Positions 15,765 to 43,500 of a stretch of DNA of 64,000 nucleotides are shown piece by piece. The notes under the pieces are model-generated. The model was not told the origin of the DNA and searched no databases. It was given only the letters and a program-made list of their open reading frames with translations. Made by a program: the position numbers and the translations under genes. Source of the stretch: Elusimicrobiota bacterium (GTDB lineage Bacteria > Elusimicrobiota > Elusimicrobia > UBA1565); the NCBI GenBank assembly GCA_016218495.1, contig JACRDU010000162.1, positions 1 to 64,000 on the forward strand, in the 5' to 3' direction. Position 1 is the stretch's first letter. Each line of letters starts with the position of its first letter.

Positions 15765-15867
15765 ACGACCGGGACCAAGAGTCCTATTCGGGCCTAGGCC
15801 CTTTCCATCCCGCCTCCTAGGCCTACCGTCACTTATCCTTTCGGCCTTTAGGGCATAAACTTAAGGT

Positions 15868-16434: not shown

Positions 16435-16515
16435 CCCCGCCTCGAACGCCGGCCTGAGCAGTACTCCGCCCTCCGATTCAGCCAACGGCAACTTTGTTGC
16501 TGTCCTACTCATATT

Positions 16516-28500: not shown

Positions 28501-31500
28501 GACACGGGGAGGACGGCCGCCGTCCCCTCTCCGTCGGCAGGGGAGAACTGCAGGATGCCCCGGTTGAATGTGAAGGTGGAGCCGAGCAGGGTGGCCAGCC
28601 CCGCCGGGTTGGAGGCCCTCATCAGGACGAAGTAGTCGCGGCCCGAGGTCAGCACCGAGTCCGGGAACGAGAGGATCCACTCGACGTCGGTCCCGCGGAA
28701 CGGCGTGACCCCGGCCGAGCGGAAGACCGTCGAAGCGGCTGAGAAGGACGACGCCCAGTCGTACCATAAGCCGGTCGAGCCGTCGCGCACGCCCACCGAG
28801 ACATCGGTGACGGACACGCTGTCCTGGGCGCCGCCGGCCAGCCTGCCGCTGAGCGTGCCCAGCGCGGCCCCGCTGGGCAGCGAGAAGCTCAGCACGGGGC
28901 TCGAGGCGGACAGGGAGAACACCGAGAACGTGGAGCTCTGTGCGGCCGGAACACCCGCATTCGACGCGTCGGCCGCCGAAATGGTGTAGAGCCCGGTCGC
29001 CCGGATGGTCAGCCCCGAGAGCGTCACGGACCCGCCGGACAGGGCCTGGGGGGACGGGAGGGTCGGCGATGCCGACGCCACCAGCGAAATCGAGACCGTG
29101 TCCGTCAGGGTCGAAATCAGGTTGCCGAACGGGTCCACGGCGCGTACCAGGACGGAGAACGGCCGGCTGAGGATCTGGAAATCGCTGGTGCCCGTGCGCC
29201 CCGCGGGGGATCCGGGCAGCGCGGCCTCGCCGGGGACCAGGACCTGCAGGGAGGAGTAGGCCGCGGCCTGCACCGTCACCGTGGACCCGGCCGTTCCCGC
29301 CGCCCCGGCGCCCTGCGCCCAGACCAGGGAGGTGGCCGGCGCCGGCTCCGCCACGCGCAGCGTCACCGGGAAGGCGGCCGACCCGGCGCTCAACGCCGCG
29401 CTGGACGGCTCCGTGTCGAAGGTGTCCCCGGTATGCACGGTCGTCGCCGCGGTGGAAGTCCGGACGGGCAGGAAGGCGTTGGAGACCGCGTGCACGGTGA
29501 CCGTGAACGACGAGCCCGCCGTCTGCACAAGCGCCGTGCCGGTCCGTCCGGTGCCCGCCACGAAGGTCTCTCCGGGGGCGATGACCAGCAGGGTCGGCCG
29601 GAACTCGATGCCGCTGTTGCCCCCGTCGTCGCGGGTCAAGCCGTCGTTGGCGTAGAGCAGAGCCCCCGCCGTGGCGTCGGCGTCCCTGACGGCCGCCGCG
29701 CTCATCGTCGAGGTCTGGACGGAGAGCCTGAACGGAGTGCCCGGCAACGCGCTGCGCAGGTCCACCGGGGTGCCGGTCGAGGTCCCGTTGACGCGCAGGT
29801 CGGCCAGGACGTGCAGGCCCGAGGTGGAGAAGGTTATCCCGGCCGACGGTTGGGTCGCCGAGAAGACCGCGGCGTCGAAGCTGGCGGAGAACACCCGGGC
29901 GCCGGGTCCGGCGGAGAGCCCGTTGAAGGCCTGGTGCAGCTTGTCGGCGTAGGCCTGCGTGGACGCCGAGAGGAAGGAGACCGTGGAGCGCTGCGCGGCG
30001 AAGGTCCCGCCCGCGCCCGCCCAATCCCCCTCCAGGCCGAAGGAGGCGTCGGAGGCCTCCAGACGGCCTGAAGTCAGGGCCAAGGCCCCGCGCACCCGCA
30101 GCGCGGTGCCGGGCGCCACGGCCACGCTGCTCGAGGAGGCGACCTCCAGGCCGCGCAGCGCGCTCTGCGGCCCCGGCTCCAGCCGCTGCAGCGCGGAGCC
30201 CGTCATGACCAAAGTGGCCGACGAGACGGAGGCGAAGTCGAAGACGCCCCCGGCTGACACGAGGTCGCCGCCCAAGGTCATCCGGGCCCCGGTCGAGAGG
30301 CGCACCGTCCCCGTCGCCGCCCGGAGCGTCCCATCCACGGCCAGGGAGCCGAACCGGAAGGTGGTGGTGGCGCTGTCGGCGGCGAAAAGGATGTTCCCCA
30401 CCGGCCCGGTGGAGAGCAGGGCGCCCCGGTCGGTGCCGGAGCCGGAGTATACGAGCCAAGAACCGGCGTCGTGCAGGTAGGCCGAGCCCGGGCCGATGTA
30501 GAGCTCTCCGGCCTCGCGCAGGGTCAAGGTCGAGCCCCGGGAGTCAAGCGTCCCCCCCGGGAAGAGGTTGATGGCGCCCGTCGAAAGGGTCATGGACGCG
30601 CTCAGGCGGACCGCGCCGCGCACGTCGACCTGGCCGGTGACCGACGAGGCGCTCGACACCAGCACCCGCCCCCCGGCGGGGCTCTGCCAGAGCACGCGGT
30701 GGGCGCTCGAGGAGGTGTAGACCGCCCCCGCCGTCACCCATCCCGACGACGAGCCGACCACAGAAATGGAACTGGCGCCCCCGTCGAACACCGCCCCCGC
30801 CAGGACCGTGAAGGTACCGCGCAAGACGAGCGCGTCGCGCAGGAAGGCGCCGGCGCTGGAGTTGGCCACGACCAGCGAGTCAAGCGCCGCGCCGGCCAGG
30901 GAGAGTTCCTGCAGCGAAGCGCCCTCCAGGCGCACCGTGGAGGAGGCCGTCGTCGGTCCGGGCCCGCCGCGGCGGTAGAGCCCCTCACCCAGCCGGAGTA
31001 CCCGGCCGGAGATGTCGAAGGCGCCGCTGAAGAGCTCGAGGGGGCCTTCGACGGCGGCGTCGGCCGCGAGGACGACCCCCGCCGGGTTCGAGGAGACGAG
31101 GTGCCCGAACACCGAGGCGCTCGACGCGGCGATACGCTGCGCCGCGGTGCCGTCCAGCAGCACCGTCCCAGAGGACCCCCGGAAGGAGCCGCTAGAGGCG
31201 CTCAGCGCGCCCCGAAACGAATGGGTGGCTGTCCCCAGGTCGCTCAGGCCGTCGACGAAGGTCACCCCGCTGGAGACCGCCACCGCGGTGGCCCAGGTGA
31301 CGCCGCCCGGGGAAGCCAGCTCGAGGTAGTGGAAGCTCGTCGCCCCCGCCAGGATGCTCTGCGCGCCTGGCCCGACGAAGGCCACCGTGGCGCCGGAGGC
31401 GGAGAAGGTCCCCGACGAAGACCAGTTCCCGCTCAGCTCGATGCGCCCCAGGCCCGCCGACAAAGACGAGCCGGCGGCGACCTCGAGGTCCCCGGCGACG

Positions 31501-33203
31501 GCGGTCTTCGTACTGAGGCCCGGCAGCAGGACGGCGCCGGAAGAGCCGACGACGGACAGGCTGCCGAAGGAGCCCCAGCGCGCGCGCTGGACGGAAGTCC
31601 CGTCGAGGATATAACGGCTGCCGCCCGAGTCCACCCGGCCCAGTTGGGTCAGGTCCCCGCCGAAGCGCGCCGTCACGCCGGCCGAAACGGTCATCGTGGA
31701 CCCCGCCTTGACCGTCATGTTGCCCCGAATGCTGACCGAAGAGGCCAGCGTCAGCGACGCCCCGGTCTCCACGAGGAGATGGTTGAAGTCCATCCCCGGC
31801 AGGACGCTCAGGGACTTCCCGAACCCGGTCATGGTCACGGTACCGGCGGTGAGCGTGAAGGTCCCCCCGGTCTGGACGAAGTCCCCGCCCATCTTCATCT
31901 CGAGGCTCCCGACGCTGAGCGTGCCGCCCCGCATCTCGAAACGCCCCGTCACGCTCGAGAACAGGGTGTTCCAGACCAAGGTCCCCTGGTAGCCCGATTC
32001 CAGCGTCAGCGTGCCGATGGGCAGGTTCCCGAAATCCCAGGTGCACGATTTGGCGGAGGCGGTAGAGCCGAAGACGGCGTTCTCGAAGGCCTGCGGCGCG
32101 ACATTGCCCACCCAGTTCGCGGAGTCCTTGCAGTCGGACGACCCCGCCCCGGTCCAGACCTTGGGGTCGACGAAGGCGCTGCCGGCCCCTCCATTGCTTC
32201 CCGGGGGCGTACCAGGGCCTCCGGCTCCCGCTCCCGACGAGATGGCGATGGTGGCCAGGTTCAAGCCCGTCGTGACGATGGCCACCCGGCCCCCGCCGCC
32301 GCCGCCGCCGGCCGGGCCGGCGCCGCCGCTGCCGCCCGCGGCGCCCCGGGCCAGCATGGAACCCGTGCCGGAGAGCACGGCGGCGCGGAGCAGTATGGCC
32401 CCTCCGGAGCCCCCCCCGCCGGCCTGGGAGCAGCCCCCCGCGCCGGCCGTCCCGTCGGCCAGGAACGCCCCGTTGACCGTGGCCGTTCCGGCGGTGACCG
32501 TCAGGAGCCCTCCGCCCGCGCCCCCGAAGCACGGAGCCAGGCCCCCTCCTCCCCCGGAGCCCAGCGTCGCAGGCAGGCTCACGGTGCCGTAGGCGCTCCC
32601 TCCGTTGACCGCCAAGCCGCCGTTTCCGCCCGCTCCTCCGTGGCCGCCGCCGCCGGCGCCGCGGCCGCCGCTGCCCGACCCGCCGCCTCCCGGACCCGTG
32701 CCGGCCGAAATGGCGCTCCCGCCGGGGAAGCCCCGTCCGGTGGCCTGCACCGTGGCCCCCGCCTGCAGGTCGAAGACGTCGGCCGAGATGGTGACGGCCG
32801 TCGTCGACTGGCTGACGGGCCCGTACTGCTCGACGAGTCCGCCAGACGAGACGCTGAAGGTCCCCGCCCGCGCCGTATGGGTGGAGAGGAAGGAGAGCAC
32901 CGAACCGCTGGAGACGCGCAAAAGCCCGGCCACCAGCGTCCCCGTCGAAAGGCGCAGTTGGGCCGTCGAGGCTCCGCCCAGGTCCAGGGAGGCCGCGACG
33001 ACTGCGGCCGCCGCCGTGGCGTCCACCCGGGCCCCCGACGAGATGGTCACGTCCGAAGCGGCGCCCGGGACGCCGGCGGGGCTCCAGTTCGCCGGGTCCG
33101 CCCATGTCGCGCCGTCCCCCCCTCCGGTCCAGGACACGGGCGCCCCGGCGGCCGGGGCGGCCGCGAGGAAGGCGAGGGCGCACAGGGTGCGGCGCAGGGC
33201 CAT
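22584..33203 (-). CDS. giant (3,539 aa) secreted adhesin-like protein: Gly-rich beta-helical / autotransporter-passenger-like repeats, Ig/CarboxypepD_reg-like domains, T9SS-type C-terminal sorting domain
   Basis: Single uninterrupted ORF. Signal MALRRTLCALAFLAAAPAAGA. GGxGGxG-rich N-terminal 1.1 kaa with recurring TLxxxG(T/S)L beta-strand repeats. C-terminal NFPNPFD...WDGANDAGKDVASGLYIGQV...FFKMAVLK (Por_Secre_tail / FlgD-Ig-like). Confidence 0.85.
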   Translation of the reverse strand: MALRRTLCALAFLAAAPAAGAPVSWTGGGDGATWADPANWSPAGVPGAASDVTISSGARVDATAAAAVVAASLDLGGASTAQLRLSTGTLVAGLLRVSSGSVLSFLSTHTARAGTFSVSSGGLVEQYGPVSQSTTAVTISADVFDLQAGATVQATGRGFPGGSAISAGTGPGGGGSGSGGRGAGGGGHGGAGGNGGLAVNGGSAYGTVSLPATLGSGGGGGLAPCFGGAGGGLLTVTAGTATVNGAFLADGTAGAGGCSQAGGGGSGGAILLRAAVLSGTGSMLARGAAGGSGGAGPAGGGGGGGRVAIVTTGLNLATIAISSGAGAGGPGTPPGSNGGAGSAFVDPKVWTGAGSSDCKDSANWVGNVAPQAFENAVFGSTASAKSCTWDFGNLPIGTLTLESGYQGTLVWNTLFSSVTGRFEMRGGTLSVGSLEMKMGGDFVQTGGTFTLTAGTVTMTGFGKSLSVLPGMDFNHLLVETGASLTLASSVSIRGNMTVKAGSTMTVSAGVTARFGGDLTQLGRVDSGGSRYILDGTSVQRARWGSFGSLSVVGSSGAVLLPGLSTKTAVAGDLEVAAGSSLSAGLGRIELSGNWSSSGTFSASGATVAFVGPGAQSILAGATSFHYLELASPGGVTWATAVAVSSGVTFVDGLSDLGTATHSFRGALSASSGSFRGSSGTVLLDGTAAQRIAASSASVFGHLVSSNPAGVVLAADAAVEGPLELFSGAFDISGRVLRLGEGLYRRGGPGPTTASSTVRLEGASLQELSLAGAALDSLVVANSSAGAFLRDALVLRGTFTVLAGAVFDGGASSISVVGSSSGWVTAGAVYTSSSAHRVLWQSPAGGRVLVSSASSVTGQVDVRGAVRLSASMTLSTGAINLFPGGTLDSRGSTLTLREAGELYIGPGSAYLHDAGSWLVYSGSGTDRGALLSTGPVGNILFAADSATTTFRFGSLAVDGTLRAATGTVRLSTGARMTLGGDLVSAGGVFDFASVSSATLVMTGSALQRLEPGPQSALRGLEVASSSSVAVAPGTALRVRGALALTSGRLEASDASFGLEGDWAGAGGTFAAQRSTVSFLSASTQAYADKLHQAFNGLSAGPGARVFSASFDAAVFSATQPSAGITFSTSGLHVLADLRVNGTSTGTPVDLRSALPGTPFRLSVQTSTMSAAAVRDADATAGALLYANDGLTRDDGGNSGIEFRPTLLVIAPGETFVAGTGRTGTALVQTAGSSFTVTVHAVSNAFLPVRTSTAATTVHTGDTFDTEPSSAALSAGSAAFPVTLRVAEPAPATSLVWAQGAGAAGTAGSTVTVQAAAYSSLQVLVPGEAALPGSPAGRTGTSDFQILSRPFSVLVRAVDPFGNLISTLTDTVSISLVASASPTLPSPQALSGGSVTLSGLTIRATGLYTISAADASNAGVPAAQSSTFSVFSLSASSPVLSFSLPSGAALGTLSGRLAGGAQDSVSVTDVSVGVRDGSTGLWYDWASSFSAASTVFRSAGVTPFRGTDVEWILSFPDSVLTSGRDYFVLMRASNPAGLATLLGSTFTFNRGILQFSPADGEGTAAVLPVSTGACQAVVTTVTFTVGNSGLGRGGAVALRIPPGWTPLAGLTAAVPPPLGYAAVVSTSLAWSVAGSSEVLFAPPSIGSVTLGSDWLAVRVASAAPNLFKPGEDIRFYYTGYPPARAVGRHLLDVRSRSAQSGTLVAVASAPAVALAAGPASGLEFSDRAPIALGPLQGSATMQLFLTDGCGNPAVSTLAVVIGLSAGQPAASGFSRDLSAAFYAAGGAGIVSVTVSTGQSASPAFYMTTSTSGVDSESVRATATLAGSAVDALRTALIRASSVAPTAVSVDTGTLSAGATSVLLVPGAGSAVVRFSVTDPAVPWDVAVATEASFTTPLARSAGTGDASSALSYRWDAVACARACSFVAPGRYPVRVRAGGNPGTSVEVRVATSPFISGSLGTSGAGAFVSVEGPGAGYGSSATADSSGAFKVWGLHEGARYAVRASSFVMVQGVGVRLSTAVCSVAASTAGGAAGSPSFAVPGLMRVNASVPVLSPEEVFGSVLARGADGSAAASGVLHFPRGGASSDDGAVALGASASTWTVLALPPGVYTLEVEVARLGLSTRPAAVTVSTSATADVSLALDRRAALSGTAVLVTTSAYGTSVAVAAAPSGSSVPTRFASLSIPAASSGTVPSSGVFRLYGLTQGSWTLTARAPGLLPATTTLFVSGTADIGDGATGQGGPALTLGLGAVLRGTVTVQGDSRGLAGTGPAPDAASSNGFSVLVEAFEPRLLRRESGIVRLSTDAAQSAAQFQLGGLEPGLWDVRAVVSGFEKTPAGDESVRVTSAGASVGLVYARPSARGLVSVRIEPPASPCSCSADFARLALLHTDPFGAQTAVAVATALAGASFQFYPSSLTMTTPALASGINRWTFLDPATGRSASAALSLTPAATAEALLDLSGGSKTVSGLVRLTGPVRISSTGYSVTVSSLPGLVAFAARAPYCLLSSSSPVTLSAARVELVPVGDGSAGAPGPLARAGQSCASWSPSVAARTPAIAYVGALAADGSFLIRGVPPGYYRVRIPGDLDGSPGNGDEAAPVEASLAVTADTALDLRLGPGGSVQGALALPAGAPAKRRLDVMLSSLDGTELRRVSVEAAPGSPAAFAVNSLPDGEFVLAVADAGTPRAYGARPRLISLNGGAADAGTVSLEALGSIRLRLALERRSSSGTLELVPIDGSDRTLLPAELRIAAVASPWREGGFFPAQGAFCGPRGCARPDFDAAGTILIGGVFAGVYDVELVPGPGGGVDAAAAVRAGVRVAEGQTAELGVVKLRSAATVAGLLTDSSGGLPAGGVPVTARPSVGGLSSLRRPARTVRSDGAGRFSLGGLDPDVRFYDIVAAARPEDPSEPPPAYDETVIAGVDVLSTAALSIPLRAAPYSVSGRVLAADGGQLLGASDGAVAEPGAELYLYPEGRPPTEGPLGNTVSRTAPDGSFSLSGLSAGAYRLTVEALGCAPRTLPVRVTAASPSLGTITLQRAASLSGVLRRPDGGAPGEDEVRRVFAATADLSEVLEGGLLRDSAGRSAARYRVGGFVPGKTYRLIVLTADDEPYTPPEASALSFSTTTESRVLDVVVRPPAPRITAKSRRSGGAFLIEFNSSRPLRARTAADDDPARLVSTVSASGALSGLELSADRRKVLGIYTPGVSESSFTLRFAARTEERDPDAADSAEFLAVATAAFFSGVDGYQSTQLSNLTGGTLSIEGDPGRVALPKGAFILDASSSASIALRRTDELLLGARGLAAAGLSAEEATRTSLRFGTDAYPAGLVRAMAATPPDVRPAGPYYDVAVSSGLGSRLAKPARLSLGYAAGAEPARLNVYWYNEAANAFVLQQDVTGAPLELDALNKTVSLSVDHFSTFVLFDAAAAVISGNAYDGGVLSAYNFPNPFDLRLKTVTPIHGAAIQTVRGTLVRIAVPAGQGGDGRLLVFSAAGERVRTVDLGQLQGGRSYYQAWDGANDAGKDVASGLYIGQVKVGGRSAFFKMAVLK

Positions 33204-33206
33204 TGG

Positions 33207-33665
33207 CTACTTGGACTGCTGCCTCGACATGAACTTCCGGCGCTCGGCCAGCTTCTTCATCTCCTCGGCGAAGGCCGGGTTCTTCTTGAGCATGAAGGAG
33301 AAGTCGGCCGAGAGGAGGACGAACAGGCGCGTCGCCTCCTCGCAGACCACGCTGGCGTTGCGCGGGTCGCGCGACAGCAGGGCCATCTCGCCGAAGAAGT
33401 CCCCCGGCCCGAGGCGGGCCACGGTCTTGGAGAGGAAGATGTACCTCTTGAGCCGCACGGAGACCGCCCCGTCGTAGACGATGTAGAAGGCGTCCCCCGG
33501 TTCGCCCTGATGGAAGACCGTCTCCCCGGGCTTATAACGGCAGAGCATGATGTACTTCACTATCTGCTCGAGCTCCCCGACGTTGAGCGGCGCGAAGAAC
33601 TCGACCTTCCTCATCGCCCGGGCCAGGTGGCCGTAGTCCGCGTCCGACATCGCTACCTTCTCCAT
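33207..33665 (-). CDS. stand-alone cyclic-nucleotide-binding (cNMP/CAP-effector) domain protein, no DNA-binding domain
   Basis: 152 aa. cNMP-binding beta-roll motifs GETVFHQGEPGDAFYIVYDGAVSV and FGEMALLSRDPRNASVV. The stop is 3 nt before the giant-gene ATG. Confidence 0.8.
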   Translation of the reverse strand: MEKVAMSDADYGHLARAMRKVEFFAPLNVGELEQIVKYIMLCRYKPGETVFHQGEPGDAFYIVYDGAVSVRLKRYIFLSKTVARLGPGDFFGEMALLSRDPRNASVVCEEATRLFVLLSADFSFMLKKNPAFAEEMKKLAERRKFMSRQQSK

Positions 33666-33674
33666 TTTCGCCTC

Positions 33675-34892
33675 CTAACGCTCGAATGCGACCCCGAAGA
33701 GCAGCGAGGTCGCGTCGTGGTTGAACCGGTGGAATCCCTCGTAATGGTCGTTGGCGCGCGCCCATGAGCGCTCCACCCGGGCCATCAGGCCCAGGCCCGG
33801 AGCGAGCGGCCAACGCCCCTCCAGTGACAGCGCCCAGGTCTGTTCCAGCAATCCGACGCCGCTGTAGGCGCCGATGCCGTCCCGGGCCGAGCGGTGCGGC
33901 CAGCGGCGCCAGCCGTAGCGCAGCCCCCCCGCCAGGGAAGCCGGGGCGCGCGGGTCCCCCCAAGACGCGCCGAAGTCCGGCCCGAGCTTCCACGCCGCAT
34001 AGCTGTAGCAGCGCTCCTGGAAGCGCGCTCGGGCGGGGTCGAAGCAGGCCTGGTCGGAGACCGTGTCTTCGAACTGCACGCTGAGCCCGCCGTGCAGACG
34101 GCGGTTCGGGCGCGGCTCGCCCGAGGCCCTGAGCCCGGCCTCGGCGGAGGAGACCAGGTCCCCCCGGGTCGAGTCGCCGAGCGACCCGTCGGAGCGGACC
34201 AGCTTCTGGTGGAGGAAGCGCCGGACCTGCAGCCCGGCCTTCAGGTCCAAGGCCAAGCCCTTGGGCAGGGGGAGCAAGAGGCCCGCGCTCAGCAGGTGGG
34301 CGTCGAAGTCGAGGACCCCCGAGCCGGCCAGCTCGCGGGCCAGCGGCCGGCCGCGCGGGTCGAGCGGGGCGGAGGATTCCAGCGAGTTGAAGTTCGGGAA
34401 GAAGGTGCGCGACAGCGCGTAGCCGGCCCAGAGCCGCCGCCCGGCCGACAGGTCCCATTCCAGGTCCACGCCCCCGTCGACGGTGTGGCTGTCGAAGAGC
34501 CCGGACAGCCAGTCCTCGTCCTTGGTCTCCCGCAGCAGGCGCATGCGCCAGCCGGCCCGGGGCTTGAGGAGCCAGCGGCCCCGAGCGGGGGCGTAGACGG
34601 CTTTCAGCGAAACACGGTGCTCCATCGCCTCAGAGAACAAGGTCGTCCCGCCCGCCGTGTCGAGCGCCGATTCGACCCCGCTGTAGGAACCGCCGAGGAC
34701 GGGGAAGAAGGTCCAGCGGGGCCCCAGCGGCACGGCCGCCGCGGCCGAGCCCGATGCGCTGCCGGAGAAGGCCCCCGGCCTGCCGTCGGTCTGCAGGCGG
34801 CCCCCCAGGAAGCGCGCGGAAATGACGGTCTCCAGCGCCCGCGCGGGGCCCGGGAAGGCGAGCAGGGCGCAGAGCAGGGCCCGGACGCTCAC
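33675..34892 (-). CDS. outer-membrane beta-barrel protein, unknown family (paralog of 62142..63383). GTG start overlapping the upstream stop.
   Basis: Signal VSVRALLCALLAFPGPARA. Alignable to the 62142 ORF (LRETKDEDWLSGLFDSHTV vs LKETRDETWGKGLFDTQTV; FFPNFNSLESS vs RFPNFKSLESK). The longer 688-aa ORF form has a junk N-terminus overlapping the upstream gene. Confidence 0.6.
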   Translation of the reverse strand: MSVRALLCALLAFPGPARALETVISARFLGGRLQTDGRPGAFSGSASGSAAAAVPLGPRWTFFPVLGGSYSGVESALDTAGGTTLFSEAMEHRVSLKAVYAPARGRWLLKPRAGWRMRLLRETKDEDWLSGLFDSHTVDGGVDLEWDLSAGRRLWAGYALSRTFFPNFNSLESSAPLDPRGRPLARELAGSGVLDFDAHLLSAGLLLPLPKGLALDLKAGLQVRRFLHQKLVRSDGSLGDSTRGDLVSSAEAGLRASGEPRPNRRLHGGLSVQFEDTVSDQACFDPARARFQERCYSYAAWKLGPDFGASWGDPRAPASLAGGLRYGWRRWPHRSARDGIGAYSGVGLLEQTWALSLEGRWPLAPGLGLMARVERSWARANDHYEGFHRFNHDATSLLFGVAFER

Positions 34893-36385
34893 GGCAGGGC
34901 TCCCGTCATGAAGGCCAGGGCCGGGTCGAGGCGCAGCTCGATGGTCCGCCCCGAGAAGAGCGAGGAGGAAACGCTCTGCTCCAAGCCGGCCCCCAGCAGG
35001 ACGGCGCGGAAGGCCGCCGCGCCCGAGCCCGCCGGCAGCGCGGCGGAAGCGACCTCGCCGCCGCAGAGCCCGCGCGAGACCGTGGACAGCGAAGAGCCTT
35101 CGGCCCAGGACGAGCTCAAGACCTGCAGCCGAGCGCTGGGAGCGGGATAGGTGACCGAGACCGCTCGCGCGGCAAGCTGGGCGCCGTTCATCAGGGCGTG
35201 GGCGGCGGTGAGGGCCCCTCCCGTGAAGGGGTCGGTGACGGTGGATGGGACGGCGTCGCCGTTCACCAGGATGTTCGCGCCCGTCCAGCCGGCCGCCAGG
35301 CGGCCGTTTACATAGACCCCCCACCGGTCGAAGAGGGAACGCCAGGCCGAAGCGCCGGCCGCCGAGCGGAAGTCCCCCGTCACCGGGTCGAAGACGGAGG
35401 AGACGTCGTCGGCGCCGTCGGCGTTGGCGTTGAGGTCGACCAGGTGTCCGCCGTCGGCCGTCTCCATCAGGACGTCGGGGCCGTTGGAGCGCGCCGACTC
35501 GTAGGCGGTCAGGGTCAGGGCGGGGGCCGCGCCCGCCGTGCCGGCCAGCGCCCGCAGGGCGCCCGAGATGTCCCCCGGCACGGCCGCGCTGAAGGTGCCC
35601 AGGTGGTAGAGGTAGTCGGTCCGGCCTTCCCGGCCGTTCACGGCGACCAGCTCGAGCTGGTCGGCCCGGGGTCGCCTGACCCAGGACTCGGCGCGCACCC
35701 GCGCTCCCCGAGAATCCATCGCCGTGCGGCCTTCCTCCCATTCCAGGCGCCGCAAGGCCTCGGCCCCGGAGGCATAGAGGCCTTCCCGGAAGGCGTCGGA
35801 TTCCAGCTCCGCCCGGATGCGCTCGCGCAGGCCTTCGCGGCGGAGGGCCGCGGCGGCCGGCATCCTGACGGGGACCTCCAGCCCGCGCAGGTCGATGCGC
35901 ACGCTCTCCCCGGAGCGCAGCAGGAGTTGGTGCCCGCGGTTGTCCTCCACCCCCAGCTCCCCCTCCGCCGACTCCACCGTGGTCCGGCCTCCGGCCAGGA
36001 CGCTGACCCTGAACTCCCCGCCCCGCACGGTCAGGGCCGCGGCCGGCGTGCGTACCTGCACCACACGGCGCCCCACATCGGCGAAGCGGAAGACGGACAC
36101 GCCGATCTCCACGCGGGCCAGGAAGCGCTCACCCCCGACGTCCTCCAAGGTGAGGACCGTGTCCTCCTGCAGCAGGGCGGTGTCGGCCCCGCCCAGCTTG
36201 AGGAAGGCGGACGATTGACGGCCCGTCCTGAGGGCGGCGCCGGGGCCCAGGGCGGACGGGATCTTCTCCAAAGTCGCCCAAGGGGCGTCCAAAGCGGGCC
36301 TGAGCTGGAGCAGACCGGACGCTCCGGCGACAGACGGCCCCGCCGGCGCGGCAGCCGCCGCCGGGCGCGAGAATAGGGCCAGCAC
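34889..36385 (-). CDS. secreted FecR-domain protein (paralog of the partial gene at 63391..64000)
   Basis: GTG start (a possible ATT start 6 codons upstream would give a better signal peptide). FecR-like block FLKLGGADTALLQEDTVLTLEDVGGERFLARVEIGVSVFRF...VRTPAAALTVRGGEFRV. C-terminal TADGGHLVDLNANADGADDVSSVFDPVTGDF matches the 63391 ORF. Confidence 0.6.
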   Translation of the reverse strand: MLALFSRPAAAAAPAGPSVAGASGLLQLRPALDAPWATLEKIPSALGPGAALRTGRQSSAFLKLGGADTALLQEDTVLTLEDVGGERFLARVEIGVSVFRFADVGRRVVQVRTPAAALTVRGGEFRVSVLAGGRTTVESAEGELGVEDNRGHQLLLRSGESVRIDLRGLEVPVRMPAAAALRREGLRERIRAELESDAFREGLYASGAEALRRLEWEEGRTAMDSRGARVRAESWVRRPRADQLELVAVNGREGRTDYLYHLGTFSAAVPGDISGALRALAGTAGAAPALTLTAYESARSNGPDVLMETADGGHLVDLNANADGADDVSSVFDPVTGDFRSAAGASAWRSLFDRWGVYVNGRLAAGWTGANILVNGDAVPSTVTDPFTGGALTAAHALMNGAQLAARAVSVTYPAPSARLQVLSSSWAEGSSLSTVSRGLCGGEVASAALPAGSGAAAFRAVLLGAGLEQSVSSSLFSGRTIELRLDPALAFMTGALP

Positions 36386-36463
36386 CAGGGCTGGGAGGAG
36401 GGCTCTTACCCTAATAATGCTCTAAGGGTACGCGCCCCGCGCGAAGCGCGCAATACCTCAACG

Positions 36464-36537
36464 GTGTCAGACTTTCGGAACTTTCGAAAGTTCGAAACTC
36501 TGTCGGAACTTTCGAAAGTTCCGAAAGTCTGACACCA
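36464..36537. repeat. AT-rich nested inverted repeat. 30-bp perfect stem GGTGTCAGACTTTCGGAACTTTCGAAAGTT...AACTTTCGAAAGTTCCGAAAGTCTGACACC containing two copies of the 18-bp palindrome GGAACTTTCGAAAGTTC(C/G). Candidate terminator and/or operator.
   Basis: Read directly. Lies immediately after the TAA stop of the 36540 gene and about 80-150 bp upstream of the 34889..36385 gene. Flanked by small GC hairpins (GCGCGAAGCGCGC). Confidence 0.8.
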
Positions 36538-36539
36538 GT

Positions 36540-37502
36540 TTAGAATTTCAGGAGGAGGGAGAAGCGGAAGGTGTTGCCGAGGTCGCCGTAGGGGACCCAG
36601 GCGAAGTCGAAGCCGGCGCGGTAGAACTGCACGCCGGCGCCCATCGTGAGGAGGTTCTGCCCGTCGTTGTCCATGCGGTGGGTGTTGACGCCGGCCCGCA
36701 GCGCGCCGGAGACGTTCGCCGTGAACGGGTGCAGGTACTCGACCCCGCTGCCCACGAACAGGTCGGTGTCGCGGTACTTTGTCACGTCCAACGAGGCCCG
36801 GACCCGCTTGGTCAGCTGGGTGCCGGAGCCGACGACGAAGCCGCGCGGGAGCGGGTCGGAGACTCCCGCGAAGGAGATCTCGCTGCCGATGTTCTTGACC
36901 ACGGCGGAGAGCCAGACCGGCCGCCCCCACACGCTGGGCAAGGTGAACAGGCCCCCGAAATCGGTGGCGAAGGCAGAGGCCGAGTAGCTGTCGATGGTCT
37001 CGTGGATGAGCTTGCCGGTGACGCCCAGGCTCAGCCGCGGAGACAGCCGGTAGGCGTAGGAGAGGTTGTAGGAGTAGTCCCCGGCCCCGAAGCTGCCGGT
37101 CGGCGAGCGCGTGTCGGCGGTGTGGCGCTCGATGTCGGAGATGGAGAGGTTGTAGATGGCCGCTCCGATGGCGTGCTTGGAGTGGTCGGCCTGGCGGCCC
37201 ATCGGGTAGACGAAGCCGGCGAACTCGTAGCTGATGCCCTGGAAGTGCTCGGCATGCGCCGCGGCCAGCTGGCTGGTCGACAGGCGGGTCATGGCCGCCG
37301 GGTTGTAGTACACCGCGTAGACGTCGTCGGCCAGAGCCGAATACGCCTCGCCCATCGCGCCGGCGCGGGAGCCCGCGCCGAGCTTGAGGAACTGGGCGGC
37401 GCTGGTGCCCGCGTTGGGGTTGATGGCCAGGGCCGGGCGCGCGGCGGCGCAGACGAGCCCGAGGGCCGCCAGCAGCGCGAAGAGTCGGACCCGGTTGGTC
37501 AC
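36540..37502 (-). CDS. FadL/PorV-like outer-membrane beta-barrel (module 2 partner of the 8,185-aa CTD protein)
   Basis: Signal MTNRVRLFALLAALGLVCAAARPALA. FadL hatch-type motif FLKLGAGSRAGAMGEAYSALADDVYAVYYNPAAM. C-terminal FRFSLLLKF. ATGA overlap with the giant-gene stop. Paralog of 21643..22587. Confidence 0.65.
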   Translation of the reverse strand: MTNRVRLFALLAALGLVCAAARPALAINPNAGTSAAQFLKLGAGSRAGAMGEAYSALADDVYAVYYNPAAMTRLSTSQLAAAHAEHFQGISYEFAGFVYPMGRQADHSKHAIGAAIYNLSISDIERHTADTRSPTGSFGAGDYSYNLSYAYRLSPRLSLGVTGKLIHETIDSYSASAFATDFGGLFTLPSVWGRPVWLSAVVKNIGSEISFAGVSDPLPRGFVVGSGTQLTKRVRASLDVTKYRDTDLFVGSGVEYLHPFTANVSGALRAGVNTHRMDNDGQNLLTMGAGVQFYRAGFDFAWVPYGDLGNTFRFSLLLKF

Positions 37503-40500
37503 AGGCCGCTCCCCTTGATGACGGCCATCTTGTGGTAGACGCTCTGGCCGTTCACCGTGTACTCCAGGATGTATACGCCCGAGGCCACCGGCCGGCCCGC
37601 GGCGTTCGTGCAGTCCCAGAAATCGTAGTTGTGCGTGCCGCCGTTGGCGGTCTTGTGGAACTCGTCGACCAGCTCGCCGGCGACGTTGTAGATGCGGAAG
37701 CGGTGGTCGAGCGGCGTGACGGCGCCGGGCGCGGCGTAGTGGATGACGGTGCCGACGCCGGTCAGCGCGCCCGCCGCGCAGGAGCCCTCGGCCACGTTGC
37801 AGTTGATGGTGCGGCTGCGGCAGTCGAACGGGTTCGGGAAGTTGAAGGCGATGGGCTTCTCGTCGCGGAAGGTGGCCGCCCCGACCAGCCCCGGCGCCCC
37901 GTTGAGGACGACGAAGGTGGAGAAGTGGTCGACCGAGACCGTGATGGTCTTGTTGATGGTGTCGATGCGCTTGTTGTTGGTCTCCTCGACCGGCGCCTGG
38001 CCGTTCGAGATGCTCCAGATCTTCAAAGCGGAGACGGAGGTCGTCGTCGCCAGCGAGGTGTCGTAGGGCAAGGTCAGGTCGACGGGCTTGGTGAGCTGGG
38101 CCCGGATGCCCAGCGGCAGGAAGACCTCGTAGAAGGAGCTGAACGGGTTGGCCTTGAAGGCGTTGTTGGTCGCGGTGGAAGCCGCCAGCGGGCCGTAGGC
38201 CGAGGCCTGCAGGGCCTGGATGCGGGCCGGCACGTAGCCGAGCTGGGCCATGGACAGCTGGGCCGCCTGGTTGGCGTCGAGCGAGCCCTGGACGCCGACC
38301 TGGACCTTGTTCTTGTCGCCCAGCTTGCCCTGGCAGTTATAGTTCGTGTCCCCGGCCGAGCAGCCCTCGAAGGAGCCGGGGGCGAAGTTCAGGCCGAACT
38401 TCTCCGAGTCGCCCTGGCCCTCGACGCGCTCGGAGGTCTGCAGGTTGACCTGGCCGCCCTGCGAGTTGTTGACCGGCTTGTTGGCCTGGGAGGTGATGAC
38501 GCGGTTCGAGCCGTTCTGCGACACCGCGGCGGCGAAGTCGAAGACCTTGAGCAGGGTGAAGTTCTCGCCCGTGGTCGGGTCGACGGTGGCCATGACGGCG
38601 TTGAGCTTGATGGAGAAGTTCTTCTCGGAGGCCGAGCCCGCCCGGTACACGACCGTGATTTCCTTGCGGTTGGACTCGATCTTCTTGTCCGAGCCGCCCA
38701 GCAGGGCGCCCTGGCCGTTCGGCGCGGTGTAGTTCGTCCCGTTGGAGGCGAAGCTCGAGACGCTGACGATGGTGTCGACGTCGTCGTCGGAGGCCAGGAG
38801 CTTGCGCAGCGGCTGCGAGCAGGCGATCTTGACCTGGAACTGCCCGTTGCCGAGCGCCTTCTCCCTGGAGTCCGCGTAGCAGTCCGGCGCCGTGCGGCTG
38901 TAGGTCAGGTTGACGGTCTTGGTCGTCGTGCTCTCGGCGGCCGAGAAGGATATCCCCTGGCCTTCCGCCGGGTAGACGACGTCGAGGTCGTCGCGGTGCG
39001 GCGGGAGGATGACCACGTTGTAGCTGACGCCCGGCTCGAAGCCGGAGATGGAGTAGCTGTTCACCGTGCGCGCCGTCTGGTCGATGGAGACCGAGCCGAT
39101 GATGAACTTGGAGAAGTCGCTGTTGGCGGCGGCCACGCCGCCGACCTCCTCGGTGCTGGGCGAGGTGCCGTTGGGCAGGAGGATGCGGCCCTGCAGCAGG
39201 CCGCCGCGGGCCAGGGTCAGGCCGGGGGCGCACAGGCCGACCACGGTGGTCGTCGAGATGCAGAAGCTGCCGGCATTGACGGTGACGGTGGCCGTGGCCA
39301 CCCCGAAGCCCAGGCTGACCGCGCGGATGGTGTAGCTGCCCACGGCGACGCCCGGGAAGCTGAAGCTGCCGTCGGAGAGAGTGTCCACCTCGGTGTCGCC
39401 CAGCGGGTTGTCCAGCGACACGACCCCGAGGGGCTGGAGGAAGACGGCCGCGGCAGGATAGCCCTGGTTCTCGCCGAACGGATAGGCGAGCGGGGACCCG
39501 TCGTCGGTCAGCACCTGGCCGGTCACGGACCCCAGCAGGGCGTTCAACTGGATGTTCAAAGGAGTGGTGGACACCGCCAGGCGGATGAGGTCGACCTGGG
39601 CGTAGCGTACGCCCGAAGCGGCCTGGTTGCCGTCGCGCGGCGCGACGGTGACGTCGTACTGCGGCGATACGAAGGTGGAGACCCAGAGGGTGAATTCGCC
39701 GTTGGCGTTGGAGAAGGTCTCCACCACCAGGGACACGTCGCCGTGCGAAGGCTTCGCCACCAGCTTGATGTTGCCCAGGGCCGTGGTGGTGGAGGCGGCG
39801 TCCACCAGAGTGCCCTTGATGGAGGTGCCCTGGTTCATCGACAGGGTACCGACGTCCTTGCGCTCGAAGGGCTGCAGGGACAGGCCGCCCAGCTCGACGG
39901 GCGAGTAGTTCTGCGACCCCTGGGCCAGGAAGGCCAGGTCCCACTTGTCCTGGAAGACCTTCAGGTCGTAGGGGGTGTCGGGGAAAAGCGGGCCGACCAG
40001 GAAGGTCCCGTCGGCGCGGATGGGGCGGGCGGAGACGCTGGAGGCCGCCTGGGCGAAGCCGCCCTCCACCCACGGGTTCGCCGTGGCGGTGATGCGCAGG
40101 TTCGGCGGCAGGACCTTGGCGTTGCGCTCGGTGAAGAGCTCGCCCGAGGCGGCGTCCTGGAGCTTGCCGGTCAGGTAGCCCGCCCGGCGCATGAGGACGT
40201 CCTGGCTGACCAGGTTCGCCGCCAGGCCGCCCGGTGACTGCGCCGAATCGGGGAAGCGGATGGGGCGGCCCAGGTACTTGGGCTCGGAGGCCGCGTCCTC
40301 GACGCTCAGGGTGTAGAATTCGCCGGCCGGCAGGCCTTCCAGGCGATAGCTGGTGGAGGCGGCCGTTACGCCCGCGGCCGAGTTGCCCAAGGCCACGGTG
40401 GTGGAGCGGACCACCTCGAGGCGGCGGTTGCGCAGGGTCAGACGCAGCGTCCGGAAGTCCTGGACACCGGCGGCCAGGGTCAGGACTCCGGTCACCGAGT

Positions 40501-43500
40501 AGCCGTCGGTGAGCGTGAAGGTGGAGGCCTGGACCGAGGCGGTGCCGACAGCCACGATCTGGGCCAGGCGCGGGACGACGACGGCGCAGGTGGTGCAGGC
40601 GGTGCCGGCGGCGTCCATGCGGCTGCGGATGTCGGCCGTCCGGACCAGGTAGACGCCGGGCGGCACGTTGCGGATGGTGTAGGTGCCGGCGCTGGTCAGA
40701 TAACCCACGCGGTCGGTGGCCGGGTTGAAGGAAGTGGAGGTGCCGACCCCGAACTCCTGGCGGATGGCGACGACGCGGGCCAGGGAGTTGGTGGAGGTCA
40801 GCACATCGCCGAGGTCCACAGTGGCCGGGTCGACGGGCACGTCCGCCCCCGTGCGGCCTTTCACGGGCAGGTGGCCGGCGTTCGCCACCAGCTTGGGATT
40901 GGTGTTGAAGTTCGTGTTGCTGATCTGGTTGAGGACGGCCCCGGAGATGGCGAAGGTCTGGTCGGTCAGGTCGACGAAGACCGTCGTCGTGGAGCCGTTG
41001 ACGATGGAGACGCGCTTCCTCACCGAGCGTCCCGTCGTCTTGTAGACGAAGGTCACATCGACGGTCTCGGTGTTGTTGCCGGTGAGGAGGAACGTCCCGG
41101 TGCTGGCCGTCGTGCTCCAGCCGTCGAGCGCGGTCGCGACCTCCTCGAAGCGCTTGCCGACCCTCTCGGGGCGGACGGCGGCGATGGTCTCGCCGAAAAG
41201 GGTCACGTTGCCGAAGTCGGTGTTCCCGTTGGGGATGAGGATGGTGCCGGAGACCACGCCGCTGGCCGCCTCGAAGCTGAAGGCCACATCGCCCTGGCCG
41301 GTGGTGGTCGACAGCGTCACCTCGCGCGAGAACCCGCCGGGCACCTCGAACTCCGTGTTGCCGCGGCTCTCGATGCCGGCGAAGACCTGGTACTTGATGC
41401 CGGGCTCCAGGCCGGTGAGCTGGACGGCCACCGAGGACAGCGTGGCGGACACCGGGATGTCGACGGAGCGGTAGGCCTGGTTCGGGGTGTTCGGCGCCCA
41501 GGCGTTGAGATGGATGCGCACGGAGGGCCCGCCGGGCTCGAGGGCCGGGAAGAGGCTGGTGTCCCCGGTCACCGACAGGGTGGCGGTCAGGACCGACGTG
41601 TTCGACGCCGGGAAGGAGGAGAAGTTGACCACCGTATCGACGCCGGAGAGGATGGTCGCCGAGTCGATGAAGACGGCCTTGTAGCCCTGGGTATTCGCCG
41701 TCAGGCGGTAGGAGCCGGGCTTGAGGCCGTCGACCCGGTAAGTGTCCGAGGCCACCCCGACGGGCAGTTCCACGCCGCCGAAACCGCCCTCGATGCGGGT
41801 CTCGGTGGAAATCGGCACGGCGCTGACCGAGACGAAGGCCCCGGTGGTATTGCTGCCGTTGGGCAAGGCCACGGTGCCGGTGAATGCTCCGCGGCGGCTG
41901 AAGACGGGCAAGGTCAGGCGCGTCTCGCCGGAGCCGGCCACGAACACGGACTGGCTCACGTCTTCGAAGCCCTCCAGGCGCGCCCGGACGGTGTAGGTGT
42001 CCGAGCCGACCTGGAAGCGCAGGACGGTCTTGGTGACGAAGGCGTTCACCGAGTTGTCGTACTGTCCGCCGTCGTCGAAGGTGGTGGTCCCGGCCTCGAG
42101 GCGCATCGGCCCGTTGCGGGAGAAGGTGCCGCTGGCGTTGGAAATCTGCAGCTCGCCCCACAGGGTGAAGGCCTGGGTGGAGGTGACCGGGATGTTGGGC
42201 ACGACGATCAAGGACGGCGCGCGGCTCATCAGGACGCGCACCGGGGCCGTGGAGGACTGGAAGGAGGCCGTGGAGAGCTCGACCTGGGAGTTGAACGGGG
42301 CCGTAGAGCGCACGGTGGAATCCGCGTTGACGGTGACCGAGGCGCGTCCCACCAAGTAGCCGTCCTTGGTGATGTTGAGGCGGTAGCCGCCGGCCGACAG
42401 GCCGTTGAGCGAGGCCGCGCCCTGGGCGTCGGTCAGCAGAGTACCGCCGCCGAACTGGCCGAAGTACTCGATGTTCACACCCGACAGCGGCAAGTTCGGC
42501 GTCACGCCGGAGTCGAAGACCTTGAGCGACAGGGCGGCGGACTGGACCGTGATGCGCAGGGAGTCGTTGCTGATGCCGCCCGCCTCGATGCGCACATAGT
42601 AGACGCCCTGGCCCACGCGCAGGCCGGCATAGTCGCGGCCGTCCCAGGCAATCTGTCCGCGGGCGGGCTGGCCGCTGCCGGAGAAGAAGGCCACCGGGTT
42701 CGGAGCGGCATCGGCCTTATAGGGGGTCGACGCGATGGACACCGTCCAGAACAGCGACTGGTCCGCGATATTGAAGTTGATGAAGGCCAGGTTGGGCGAG
42801 AGCGGGTTGCCGTCGGGCCGGATGGTGACCGTGGTCTGCGCCACCGACGGGTTGGGCTGAGTGGACACGCGCACGCCGGTCAGCGGGTCGACGGCCAGAG
42901 CGAAGACGCCGGCATAGCCCGTGGTGCCGGGAGCAAGGAGGTTGGAGGCGATTTCAACGGCCAGGTCGCCGGCCGTGGCCGCCCGGAGCCGGTAGGTGGC
43001 GCTGCTGGTCCCGGCGGCGAAGGTGACCACGGCGGTCGAGTCGAACACCCCGGCGATGCTGGAGGAGATCCTCAGCCCGGGCTCGTCGACGAAGGCGGCG
43101 GTCTGGTAGCTGAAGCGCTTGGCGCGCAGCACCACGTTGGCGACCGAGGCCACCGGGGTCCGGTTGCCGCACAGGTCGACGGCTTCGAGCAGCAGGCGTT
43201 GGGAGGTGGCGCCTTGGATGAGGCCGATGAACGGCTCGGCGGAGTGGACCGCCGCAGCGGCCCCCAGCGTCACATCGACGATAGGATTGCCCGAGAACAG
43301 CGGGGCCGGAGGCGCGGTCTGGGTGGAGGCCGAGCCGAAGAAGAACTGCGAGGGGCCCGTGAAGCAGGGCACGGCGGCGTTATAGAGGAACTGGACGGTC
43401 GAACCGGCCGCCAGCGGGGTACCGCCCACGCGGACGATGATGCCGGGCGCGCCGCCCGGGGCGGGCTGGGTGGAGACGGCCGGCCCGGCCGGGCTGAGGG

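What the first reader, a model, noticed from the sequence alone, without database searches (positions are those of the whole stretch)
33675..36385. Paralogous FecR-domain + OM-barrel gene pairs heading each module (second pair at 62142..64000)
Two pairs of paralogs head the modules: 34889..36385 with 63391..>64000, and 33675..34892 with 62142..63383. Within each pair a secreted protein whose N-terminus is a FecR-type beta-sandwich (normally the periplasmic sensor of anti-sigma factors, here without an anti-sigma N-domain) is coupled by a GTGA overlap to a ~410-aa barrel of unrecognised family ending in FGFSYDY. This formally resembles FecR / outer-membrane-transducer signalling pairs but has a small non-TonB barrel. 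The same logic could serve as a sensor or gate for cargo secretion or as an assembly factor.
Basis: partly seen in the sequence, partly recalled or inferred. Interest (0 to 1): 0.65.

Follow-up and report, generated by a model that had tools for sequence, protein, structure and literature searches.

The report
Elusimicrobial outer-membrane module for giant proteins
Two tandem copies of a gene module found across the phylum Elusimicrobiota each pair a secreted FecR-fold protein and an unclassified 16-strand outer-membrane barrel with a giant surface protein carrying a type-IX-secretion-style tail and a PorV-like barrel, which suggests a dedicated and so far undescribed way of exporting or anchoring giant proteins.

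Summary
The ORFs and both paralogies are real: barrels 31% identity (E 5e-55), FecR-like proteins 31% (E 5e-26). Two details hold for one pair only. The GTGA overlap exists only in the 34889/34892 pair. The FGFSYDY ending exists only in 62142..63383.

Each giant (8185 and 3539 aa) has a signal peptide and a T9SS type-A-like C-terminal domain. Each overlaps (GTGA/ATGA) a PorV/PorQ-family barrel gene. All four parts are paralogous between the modules.

The order FecR-like, barrel, giant, PorV-like recurs in Elusimicrobiota genomes: 63 of 69 loci have the pair adjacent, and 41 of 51 have a giant ORF downstream. No ECF sigma gene lies nearby.

My best reading is a dedicated export or anchoring module for the giant protein, not FecR-type signalling. 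Function rests on genomic inference only.

The parts
63391..64000 (-). FecR-like protein, copy B. Only the C-terminal 202 aa are present; the N-terminus runs off the window.
   Evidence: 31% identity to residues 292-498 of copy A, E 5e-26; matches family HMM positions 296-503, E 1e-60.
62142..63383 (-). Barrel B, 413 aa: signal peptide plus a predicted 16-strand outer-membrane beta-barrel of an unclassified, Elusimicrobiota-wide family. It ends in FGFSYDY.
37499..62056 (-). Giant protein B, 8185 aa: signal peptide, beta-propeller-like and CarboxypepD_reg/Ig-like repeats, and a C-terminal T9SS type-A-like sorting domain (roughly the last 80 aa, about 37502..37741).
   Evidence: N-terminal signal peptide. 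(Pfam repeats). (TIGR04183 25.4 bits against cutoff 23; also matches the C-terminal ends of the PorZ and PorU models). (motifs FPNPFD ... VASGVY ... KMAVIK).
36540..37502 (-). PorV/PorQ-family barrel B, 320 aa. Its GTG start overlaps the stop codon of giant B (GTGA).
   Evidence: Pfam PorV 3e-8, UPF0164. (NF033709 PorV_fam 163.1 bits against cutoff 90). (signal peptide).
36458..36535 (.). Long perfect hairpin in the 154-nt spacer between module B and module A. It is built from two copies of the palindrome GAACTTTCGAAAGTTC.
   Evidence: sequence. (2 copies; 0.01 expected by chance). (MFE -60.7 kcal/mol, z -9.9).
34889..36385 (-). FecR-like protein A, 498 aa: signal peptide, FecR beta-domain (about residues 18-170), charged helix 178-217, and an orphan beta-rich C-domain (225-498).
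33675..34892 (-). Barrel A, 405 aa, paralogue of barrel B. Its GTG start overlaps the FecR-like A stop codon (GTGA). It ends in FGVAFER.
   Evidence: (31% identity, E 5e-55). (family HMM E 3e-118).
33207..33665 (-). Stand-alone cyclic-nucleotide-binding protein, 152 aa, with no signal peptide. It is an accessory member of the module, between barrel and giant.
   Evidence: PF00027 77.7 bits. (sequence). (a homologue sits in the same position in at least 16 related loci).
22584..33203 (-). Giant protein A, 3539 aa: signal peptide, Gly/Ala/Ser-rich N-terminal region, a CarboxypepD_reg domain, and a C-terminal sorting domain homologous to that of giant B.
   Evidence: signal peptide. (FlgD_ig 29.3 bits at residues 3474-3524). 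(C-terminal motifs). (the two C-terminal domains share 41% identity, E 1e-16).
21643..22587 (-). PorV/PorQ-family barrel A. The likely ATG start at 22587 overlaps the giant A stop codon (ATGA). The mechanical ORF listing extends it to 22692.
   Evidence: NF033709 107 bits against cutoff 90. (38% identity to copy B, E 5e-51). (internal Met followed by a signal peptide).

Best explanation
The FecR-like protein and the 16-strand barrel are the first two genes of a conserved Elusimicrobiota envelope module. The gene order is FecR-like, barrel, an optional cNMP-binding protein, a giant protein with a C-terminal sorting domain (CTD), and a PorV-like barrel. I propose that the module exports one giant surface protein across the outer membrane and holds it there.

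Proposed sequence of events:
1. The giant protein enters the periplasm through Sec. It has a signal peptide.
2. The soluble periplasmic FecR-fold protein docks on, or gates, the POTRA-less 16-strand barrel and handles the cargo. This would be the job POTRA domains do in two-partner secretion.
3. The barrel is the outer-membrane conduit or platform. Its most conserved residues sit in the long loops rather than in the membrane strands.
4. The T9SS-type C-terminal domain of the giant is captured by the PorV/PorQ-family barrel. That gene is translationally coupled to the giant gene, and the barrel would anchor the protein on the cell surface.

Shown here: the domain composition, the predicted folds, the whole-module paralogy, and the synteny across Elusimicrobiota genomes.

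Inferred: that the proteins interact physically, that the barrel is the conduit, which step each part performs, and that the giant is surface-exposed.
For: - Module anatomy in the window.
- All four parts are paralogous between modules A and B: FecR-like 31%, barrel 31%, CTD 41%, PorV-like 38%. The unit was therefore duplicated as a whole.
- Start/stop overlaps link FecR-like A to barrel A and each giant to its PorV-like gene.
- Synteny across Elusimicrobiota.
  - 232 relatives of the barrel were found in GTDB genomes, and the best 80 are all Elusimicrobiota.
  - The FecR-like gene is directly upstream in 63 of 69 loci, and within 0.9 kb in 4 more.
  - An open stretch of at least 1500 aa lies downstream in 41 of 51 loci.
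  - The same CTD is present on all 11 giants whose ends are visible next to a PorV-like gene.
  - Tandem B-then-A modules recur in L051, L058, L062 and L073.
- Pairwise divergence of the two families correlates at r = 0.905, with 0 of 999 permutations reaching it.
- Conservation in the barrel is highest in loops L2-L4 and L6 (0.68-0.88). Strands average 0.61.
- The CTD of giant B passes TIGR04183. It also resembles the retained CTDs of PorZ and PorU, which bind PorQ and PorV. Both downstream barrels pass NF033709.
- Background from the literature: PorV binds CTDs (PMC5562754). Cargo-adjacent PorP-like barrels anchor type-B CTD proteins (PMC9143113).
Against: - There is no experimental or structural evidence that the FecR-like protein binds the barrel, or that either touches the giant. 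A complex prediction could not be run.
- The fold matches of the barrel are generic. Porins score almost as well as TpsB or TamA barrels. No Omp85 or ShlB sequence signal was found.
- The distance correlation partly reflects shared phylogeny and paralogue type.
- 10 of 51 loci show no ORF of 1500 aa or more downstream. Two loci (L072, L084) show no FecR-like gene.
- In Bacteroidota, T9SS cargo fold in the periplasm and need the 36-strand SprA pore. I could not check whether Elusimicrobiota genomes encode SprA or PorKLMN elsewhere.
- The giants do contain some cysteines, 0.34-0.48% and mostly in close pairs. This neither supports nor excludes passage in an unfolded state.
- Barrel A lacks the terminal aromatic residue of the family consensus.
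Confidence: 0.5

Rival explanations
1. The pair is an anchoring or attachment platform, not a conduit. The giant would cross the outer membrane through another translocon encoded elsewhere, such as a SprA-like pore. The barrel and the FecR-like protein would then only assemble, hold or organise the giant and PorV-like complex. This is comparable to PorP/SprF-type anchors or to the PorQ-PorZ and PorV-PorU attachment pairs.
For: - Cargo-adjacent dedicated barrels that anchor rather than translocate are known in T9SS (PMC9143113).
- The CTD of giant B resembles the retained CTDs of PorZ and PorU.
- Conserved surface loops fit a stable protein partner at the cell surface.
- T9SS-type CTD cargo are normally transported folded through a very large pore (PMC10994853).
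Against: - The barrel shows no similarity to PorP/SprF, PorV or PorQ.
- Published surveys restrict a complete T9SS to Bacteroidetes (PMC4793230).
- No T9SS core component was seen among the window genes scanned.
- The module already contains a PorV-like barrel that could do the anchoring.
Confidence: 0.2
2. The pair is a cell-surface signalling or sensing device like FecR/FecA. The barrel would sense an external cue and the FecR-fold protein would relay it, perhaps to control production or release of the giant.
For: - A genuine FecR fold is present.
- A stand-alone cNMP-binding protein is a frequent module member.
- An adenylate/guanylate cyclase-HD protein is encoded in the window at 1115..2833.
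Against: - The FecR-like protein has no anti-sigma domain and no transmembrane helix, so it cannot reach the cytoplasm.
- No ECF sigma factor lies in the window or in four related contexts. Only housekeeping rpoD is nearby.
- The barrel has no plug, TonB box or STN domain.
- The C-domain is not an STN-like domain and has no PDB match.
Confidence: 0.05
3. The barrel is a general porin or structural outer-membrane protein with a periplasmic partner. Its position next to the giant gene would be conserved gene order without functional coupling.
For: - The main-type locus sits in a core region next to rpsU-dnaG-rpoD.
Against: - The whole four-gene unit was duplicated and diverged together.
- Tandem second modules recur in other genomes.
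- Start/stop overlaps occur within the module.
- The long loops are more conserved than the strands, the opposite of typical porins.
Confidence: 0.1
4. The pair is an assembly factor of the BAM/TAM type. It would insert the cognate PorV-like barrel, or fold the giant at the membrane, rather than transport it.
For:
Against: - The barrel has no POTRA domains, and no Omp85 (PF01103) or ShlB sequence signal was found.
- The giants are repeat-rich surface-type proteins with a CTD, not AsmA/TamB-like.
- It is unclear why each PorV-like paralogue would need a private insertase.
Confidence: 0.1

Closest known systems
FecR/PupR anti-sigma regulators paired with TonB-dependent transducers (FecA/PupB cell-surface signalling)
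   Same: - It is encoded next to an outer-membrane barrel.
   Different: - It has a signal peptide in place of the cytoplasmic anti-sigma domain and transmembrane helix.
- The C-terminal half is an orphan fold, not an STN-like subdomain.
- The partner is a 16-strand, 413-aa barrel without a plug or signalling domain.
- No ECF sigma gene is nearby.
- The neighbours are a giant CTD protein and a PorV-like barrel.
Type IX secretion cargo and carrier logic (type-A CTD with PorV; PorZ-PorQ and PorU-PorV; SprB with its adjacent PorP-like SprF)
   Same: - The giants end in a CTD that passes TIGR04183 and carries PNPF ... GVY ... K-hydrophobic-K-type motifs.
- Each is followed by a barrel that passes the PorV/PorQ family model NF033709.
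- As with SprB/SprF, a giant adhesin-like protein has its own dedicated outer-membrane partner genes.
   Different: - The phylum is Elusimicrobiota, whereas complete T9SS are reported only in Bacteroidetes (PMC4793230).
- No SprA/Sov, PorK/L/M/N or PorU was seen in the window.
- The module is headed by two families unknown in T9SS.
- The 16-strand barrel is not PorP/SprF, PorV or PorQ.
Two-partner secretion (type Vb: TpsB transporters FhaC/CdiB with TpsA giants)
   Same: - It is a Sec-dependent, very large repeat-rich exoprotein encoded next to a dedicated 16-strand barrel.
- A periplasmic beta-rich partner could play the role of POTRA domains.
   Different: - The barrel has no POTRA domains. 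The mature chain starts at strand 1 in the window copies.
- No Omp85 or ShlB sequence signal was found.
- The cargo has no TPS domain. The N-termini of the giants differ between modules.
- The shared cargo element is C-terminal.
- The periplasmic element is a separate FecR-fold protein.

Membership tests
FecR-type anti-sigma regulator (cell-surface signalling) | Periplasmic FecR domain (PF04773) | tested here: met
   [not shown]
FecR-type anti-sigma regulator (cell-surface signalling) | N-terminal cytoplasmic anti-sigma domain followed by a transmembrane helix | tested here: not met
   The FecR fold begins at about residue 18, after a signal-peptide-like N-terminus. Family alignments show only signal peptides upstream.
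FecR-type anti-sigma regulator (cell-surface signalling) | Partner is a TonB-dependent transducer with plug and N-terminal signalling domain, with an adjacent ECF sigma gene | tested here: not met
   The partner is a 413-aa barrel modelled with 16 strands and no Plug or TonB_dep_Rec hit. No ECF sigma gene is in the window or in loci L001, L002, L005 and L006.
PorP/SprF family (PF11751 / TIGR03519) | Match of the ~410-aa barrel to the family models | tested here: not met
   Neither barrel hits PF11751 or TIGR03519 at E <= 1. The family profile has no PDB sequence match.
PorV/PorQ family (NF033709; FadL-like fold) | Match of the ~410-aa barrel to the family | tested here: not met
   [not shown]
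PorV/PorQ family (NF033709; FadL-like fold) | Match of the downstream 320-aa and 314/349-aa proteins to the family | tested here: met
   They score 163.1 and 107 bits against a cutoff of 90. Pfam PorV gives 34 bits against 27 for copy B, and UPF0164 hits both.
T9SS type-A CTD cargo (TIGR04183 / PF18962) | C-terminal sorting domain on the giant proteins | tested here: met
   Giant B scores 25.4 bits on TIGR04183 against a cutoff of 23. PF18962 is below its cutoff at 16.6 against 27. Giant A hits only FlgD_ig, 29.3 against 27, but its CTD is 41% identical to that of B, E 1e-16.
Complete type IX secretion system | SprA/Sov translocon, PorK/L/M/N motor and ring, PorU sortase in the genome | not testable with these tools
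   Only the window and 10-kb flanks of related loci could be read, and none was seen there. The literature restricts complete T9SS to Bacteroidetes (PMC4793230). A whole-genome scan was not possible.
Omp85/TpsB transporters (two-partner secretion) | 16-strand barrel | tested here: met
   [not shown]
Omp85/TpsB transporters (two-partner secretion) | N-terminal POTRA domains and an Omp85/ShlB sequence signature | tested here: not met
   The mature chain begins at strand 1, about residue 28. There is no PF01103, PF03865 or POTRA hit at E <= 1.

The most novel reading that the evidence does not exclude
The module is a self-contained, Sec-dependent outer-membrane secretion pathway of a new type, specific to Elusimicrobiota. 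A POTRA-less 16-strand barrel and a soluble FecR-fold periplasmic partner would translocate proteins of several thousand residues. The T9SS-type C-terminal domain of the cargo would then be captured by a dedicated PorV-type barrel. This would be a minimal, or possibly ancestral, CTD/PorV pathway that works without SprA or the PorKLMN motor. It would also be the first non-signalling, secretion-linked role for the FecR fold.
Probability: 0.25. Interest if true: 0.85.

Novelty: new variant of a known kind. Interest (0 to 1): 0.62.

Why it matters
CTD signals and PorV carriers are treated as hallmarks of the Bacteroidota type IX system. Here they appear in another phylum as part of a compact operon conserved across its genomes. 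That operon is headed by two unclassified components: a new barrel family, and a FecR-fold protein with an orphan C-terminal domain.

If the pair is the conduit, this would be a new solution for moving proteins of 3,500 to 8,000 residues across an outer membrane. It would also bear on how T9SS evolved.

Even on the conservative reading, three things follow:
- It assigns a context to hundreds of 'hypothetical' and 'FecR domain-containing' proteins.
- It warns that 'FecR' annotation in Elusimicrobiota does not imply sigma-factor signalling.
- It identifies the probable major surface proteins of a poorly known phylum that has a cultured representative, Elusimicrobium minutum, for testing.

Tried and rejected
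- **PorP/SprF or PorQ/PorV identity of the barrel.** Rejected: no model hits, hhalign probability 1.4%, and different fold neighbours.
- **FecR-type signalling.** Rejected for lack of anti-sigma, transmembrane and ECF parts.
- **Structure prediction with locus-derived orthologues.** This also ruled out a linker-fused complex of FecR-like protein and barrel. I used hits from the representative search instead.
- **Profile word search for more FecR-like homologues.** Added almost nothing.
- **Exact look-up of the window's barrel B.** Found no contig, so the missing N-terminus of FecR-like B was not recovered.
- **The afdb50 fold library.** Unavailable.
- **PDB sequence search with both family profiles.** Gave only the FecR domain.
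- **'Extra genes' between barrel and giant in L001.** They turned out to be fragments of the giant gene.
- **Promoter and terminator consensus scan of 33000..37700.** Uninformative.
- **Cysteine content of the giants.** Not decisive.
- **Literature searches.** Searches for Elusimicrobia with PorV, T9SS, FecR or giant genes found no description of this module.
- **N-terminal extension of some barrels.** Pfam gave no hits.
Full report
**Observation**

- FecR-like A: 34889..36385, 498 aa.
- Barrel A: 33675..34892, 405 aa.
- Barrel B: 62142..63383, 413 aa.
- FecR-like B: 63391..>64000, C-terminal 202 aa only.

They lie in the high-GC3 frame of a genome of about 70% GC. The barrels are 31% identical over 398 residues (E 5e-55). 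The FecR-like proteins are 31% identical over their last 214 residues (E 5e-26).

Two details are only half right. The GTGA start/stop overlap exists in pair A, but pair B has a TAG stop, 7 nt, then GTG. FGFSYDY ends barrel B only, and barrel A ends in FGVAFER.

**Organism**

FecR-like A is 100% identical to an NCBI protein named 'FecR domain-containing protein [Elusimicrobia bacterium]'. Every named homologue of either protein comes from Elusimicrobia/Elusimicrobiota.

**What the two proteins are**

The chain has four parts:
- a signal-peptide-like N-terminus;
- the FecR domain, about residues 18-170;
- one long charged helix, residues 178-217;

There is no anti-sigma domain or transmembrane helix.

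Conservation across 67 family members is highest in the long loops L2, L3, L4 and L6 (mean 0.68-0.88), against 0.61 in the strands. By the usual topology rule these loops are extracellular or fold into the lumen. Ordinary porins show the opposite pattern.

The barrel is not PorP/SprF, PorV or PorQ.

Each pair is followed by a giant ORF with a signal peptide: 8185 aa at 37499..62056 and 3539 aa at 22584..33203. Each giant ends in a C-terminal domain of about 80 aa with the motifs FPNPFD ... VASG[VL]Y ... KMAV[IL]K.
- The giant B domain passes TIGR04183, the T9SS type-A sorting domain, at 25.4 bits against 23. It also aligns to the C-terminal ends of the PorZ and PorU models.
- The giant A domain hits FlgD_ig and is 41% identical to that of B (E 1e-16).

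The stop codon of each giant overlaps the start of a PorV/PorQ-family barrel gene: GTGA for B and ATGA for A. Those barrels score 163 and 107 bits on NF033709 against a cutoff of 90. They are 38% identical to each other.

All four module components are therefore paralogous between A and B, which points to duplication of the whole module. Module A also carries a 152-aa stand-alone cNMP-binding protein between barrel and giant.

**Comparative genomics**

Back-translated motifs of the barrel found 232 relatives in GTDB species genomes. The best 80 loci are all Elusimicrobiota, spanning MAGs named with GC contents from about 39% to 70% and including Endomicrobium-labelled and Elusimicrobiaceae MAGs.

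In those loci:
- A FecR-like ORF lies directly upstream on the same strand in 63 of 69 loci with enough upstream sequence. It lies within about 0.9 kb in 4 more and is undetected in 2.
- A same-strand open stretch of at least 1500 aa follows in 41 of 51 loci with at least 6 kb downstream. In 36 of these it starts within 1 kb, and most run off the locus at more than 3300 aa.
- Wherever the end of a giant is visible next to a PorV-like gene (11 loci), it carries the same C-terminal domain.
- Tandem second modules, with a PorV-like gene immediately followed by the next FecR-like gene, recur in L051, L058, L062 and L073. Their giants share the N-terminal region of the window's giant A.
- The main-type locus lies next to rpsU-dnaG-rpoD and an MscS-like gene in three separate MAGs.
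- The cNMP-binding gene sits between barrel and giant in at least 16 loci.
- Pairwise distances of the FecR-like and barrel families correlate at r = 0.905, with 0 of 999 permutations reaching it. This shows co-inheritance as a unit. It does not by itself show contact.

**Mechanism**

Shown: the composition, the predicted folds, the gene overlaps, the module duplication and the synteny across Elusimicrobiota genomes.

Inferred: the module exports and anchors its giant.
- I take the PorV-like barrel to be the receptor or anchor for the C-terminal domain. This is by analogy with PorV-CTD, PorQ-PorZ and PorV-PorU in T9SS (PMC5562754, PMC10994853).
- I take the 16-strand barrel and the FecR-like protein to be the outer-membrane conduit or platform and its periplasmic partner. 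This would be functionally like a TpsB transporter whose POTRA part is supplied as a separate protein.
- The main alternative is that the pair only anchors or organises the complex while another translocon does the transport. That would resemble PorP-like anchors of type-B CTD cargo (PMC9143113).

FecR-style signalling is not supported, because there is no anti-sigma or transmembrane part, no ECF sigma and no TonB-type barrel. A plain-porin reading is disfavoured by the module duplication and by the loop conservation.

I also could not scan whole genomes for SprA or PorKLMN.

**One further clue, only partly followed**

In L082 the barrel ORF encodes a 730-aa protein: signal peptide, an N-terminal extension of about 330 aa, an Ala/Pro/Glu-rich linker, then the barrel. 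In L059, L066, L078 and L083 the open stretch containing the barrel is similarly long (713-772 aa). I did not read those sequences.

The L082 extension has no Pfam hit. It shares a short WTG-G...NW...VPG motif with the N-terminus of the window's giant A (E 1e-5 for a single comparison). This layout recalls an autotransporter and would fit a protein-export role for the barrel. The evidence is at motif level only.

**Novelty**

Published surveys restrict complete T9SS to Bacteroidetes (PMC4793230) or to the FCB superphylum (abstract of PMC11205867, seen). Full-text searches found no description of this Elusimicrobiota module.

I rate it a new variant of a known kind, namely dedicated outer-membrane modules for giant surface proteins that reuse CTD/PorV parts. 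There is about a one-in-four chance that it is an autonomous secretion pathway of a new type.

Noticed in passing
window 36458..36535: A perfect hairpin of about 75 nt, less GC-rich than its surroundings, lies between the PorV-like B stop and the FecR-like A start. It is built from two copies of the 16-bp palindrome GAACTTTCGAAAGTTC (only 2 in the window, 0.01 expected). MFE is -60.7 kcal/mol, z -9.9. It could be a terminator or insulator between the tandem modules, or an operator.
   Followed up: partly
window 33207..33665; related loci e.g. L058:11169-11657, L062:11294-11758, L025:11211-11708: A stand-alone cyclic-nucleotide-binding protein of 152 aa, with no signal peptide and no DNA-binding domain, recurs between barrel and giant in at least 16 related loci of both module types. 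Module B of the window lacks it. This hints at cyclic-nucleotide control of the module.
   Followed up: partly
window 20279..21646 (+): A third FecR-domain protein of 455 aa (PF04773 67 bits at residues 227-318; weak hits to Lsa33 and the LapA retention module) is convergent with PorV-like A. Upstream on the same strand are a PDZ + beta-helix protein (18759..20552), a TPR protein (17896..18981) and four ORFs with no Pfam hit (14460..18029).
   Followed up: no
window 1115..2833 (-): This gene encodes an adenylate/guanylate cyclase catalytic domain fused to an HD (HD_5) domain. It is a possible source or sink of the nucleotide sensed by the module's cNMP-binding protein.
   Followed up: no
window 33675..33700 (C-terminus of barrel A): Barrel A ends in ...FGVAFER. 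The family consensus ends in an aromatic residue (...GFxYEY, with Y413 at least 90% conserved), which is the usual BAM beta-signal. Both proteins of module A are also the most divergent members of their families in the distance clustering.
   Followed up: no
L082:8972-11164 (sequence read); L078:9038-11176, L083:8837-11152, L059:1539-3752, L066:372-2579 (open stretch length only): In L082 the barrel is a 730-aa protein with an N-terminal extension of about 330 aa and an Ala/Pro/Glu-rich linker before the barrel. In L059, L066, L078 and L083 the open stretch containing the barrel is similarly long (713-772 aa), but I did not read those sequences. The L082 extension has no Pfam hit. It shares a WTG-G..NW..VPG motif with the N-terminus of the window's giant A. 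The layout is autotransporter-like.
   Followed up: partly
L001:12244-21236 (complete genome CP096137.1): The giant gene downstream of the barrel is called as several ORFs (528, 871, 107 and 3633 aa). These align to consecutive parts of single giant ORFs in other loci. This indicates a frameshifted or pseudogenised giant, or assembly errors.
   Followed up: partly
L001, L005, L006 (about 3-8 kb upstream of the FecR-like gene): The main-type module lies immediately downstream of the rpsU-dnaG-rpoD operon and an MscS-like gene in three separate Elusimicrobiota MAGs. It is therefore part of a stable core-genome neighbourhood.
   Followed up: no
window 37499..62056 and 22584..33203: The giants have few cysteines (0.34% and 0.48%), mostly in closely spaced pairs such as 1114/1122, 3974/3980, 5260/5263 and 7154/7157.
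   Followed up: partly
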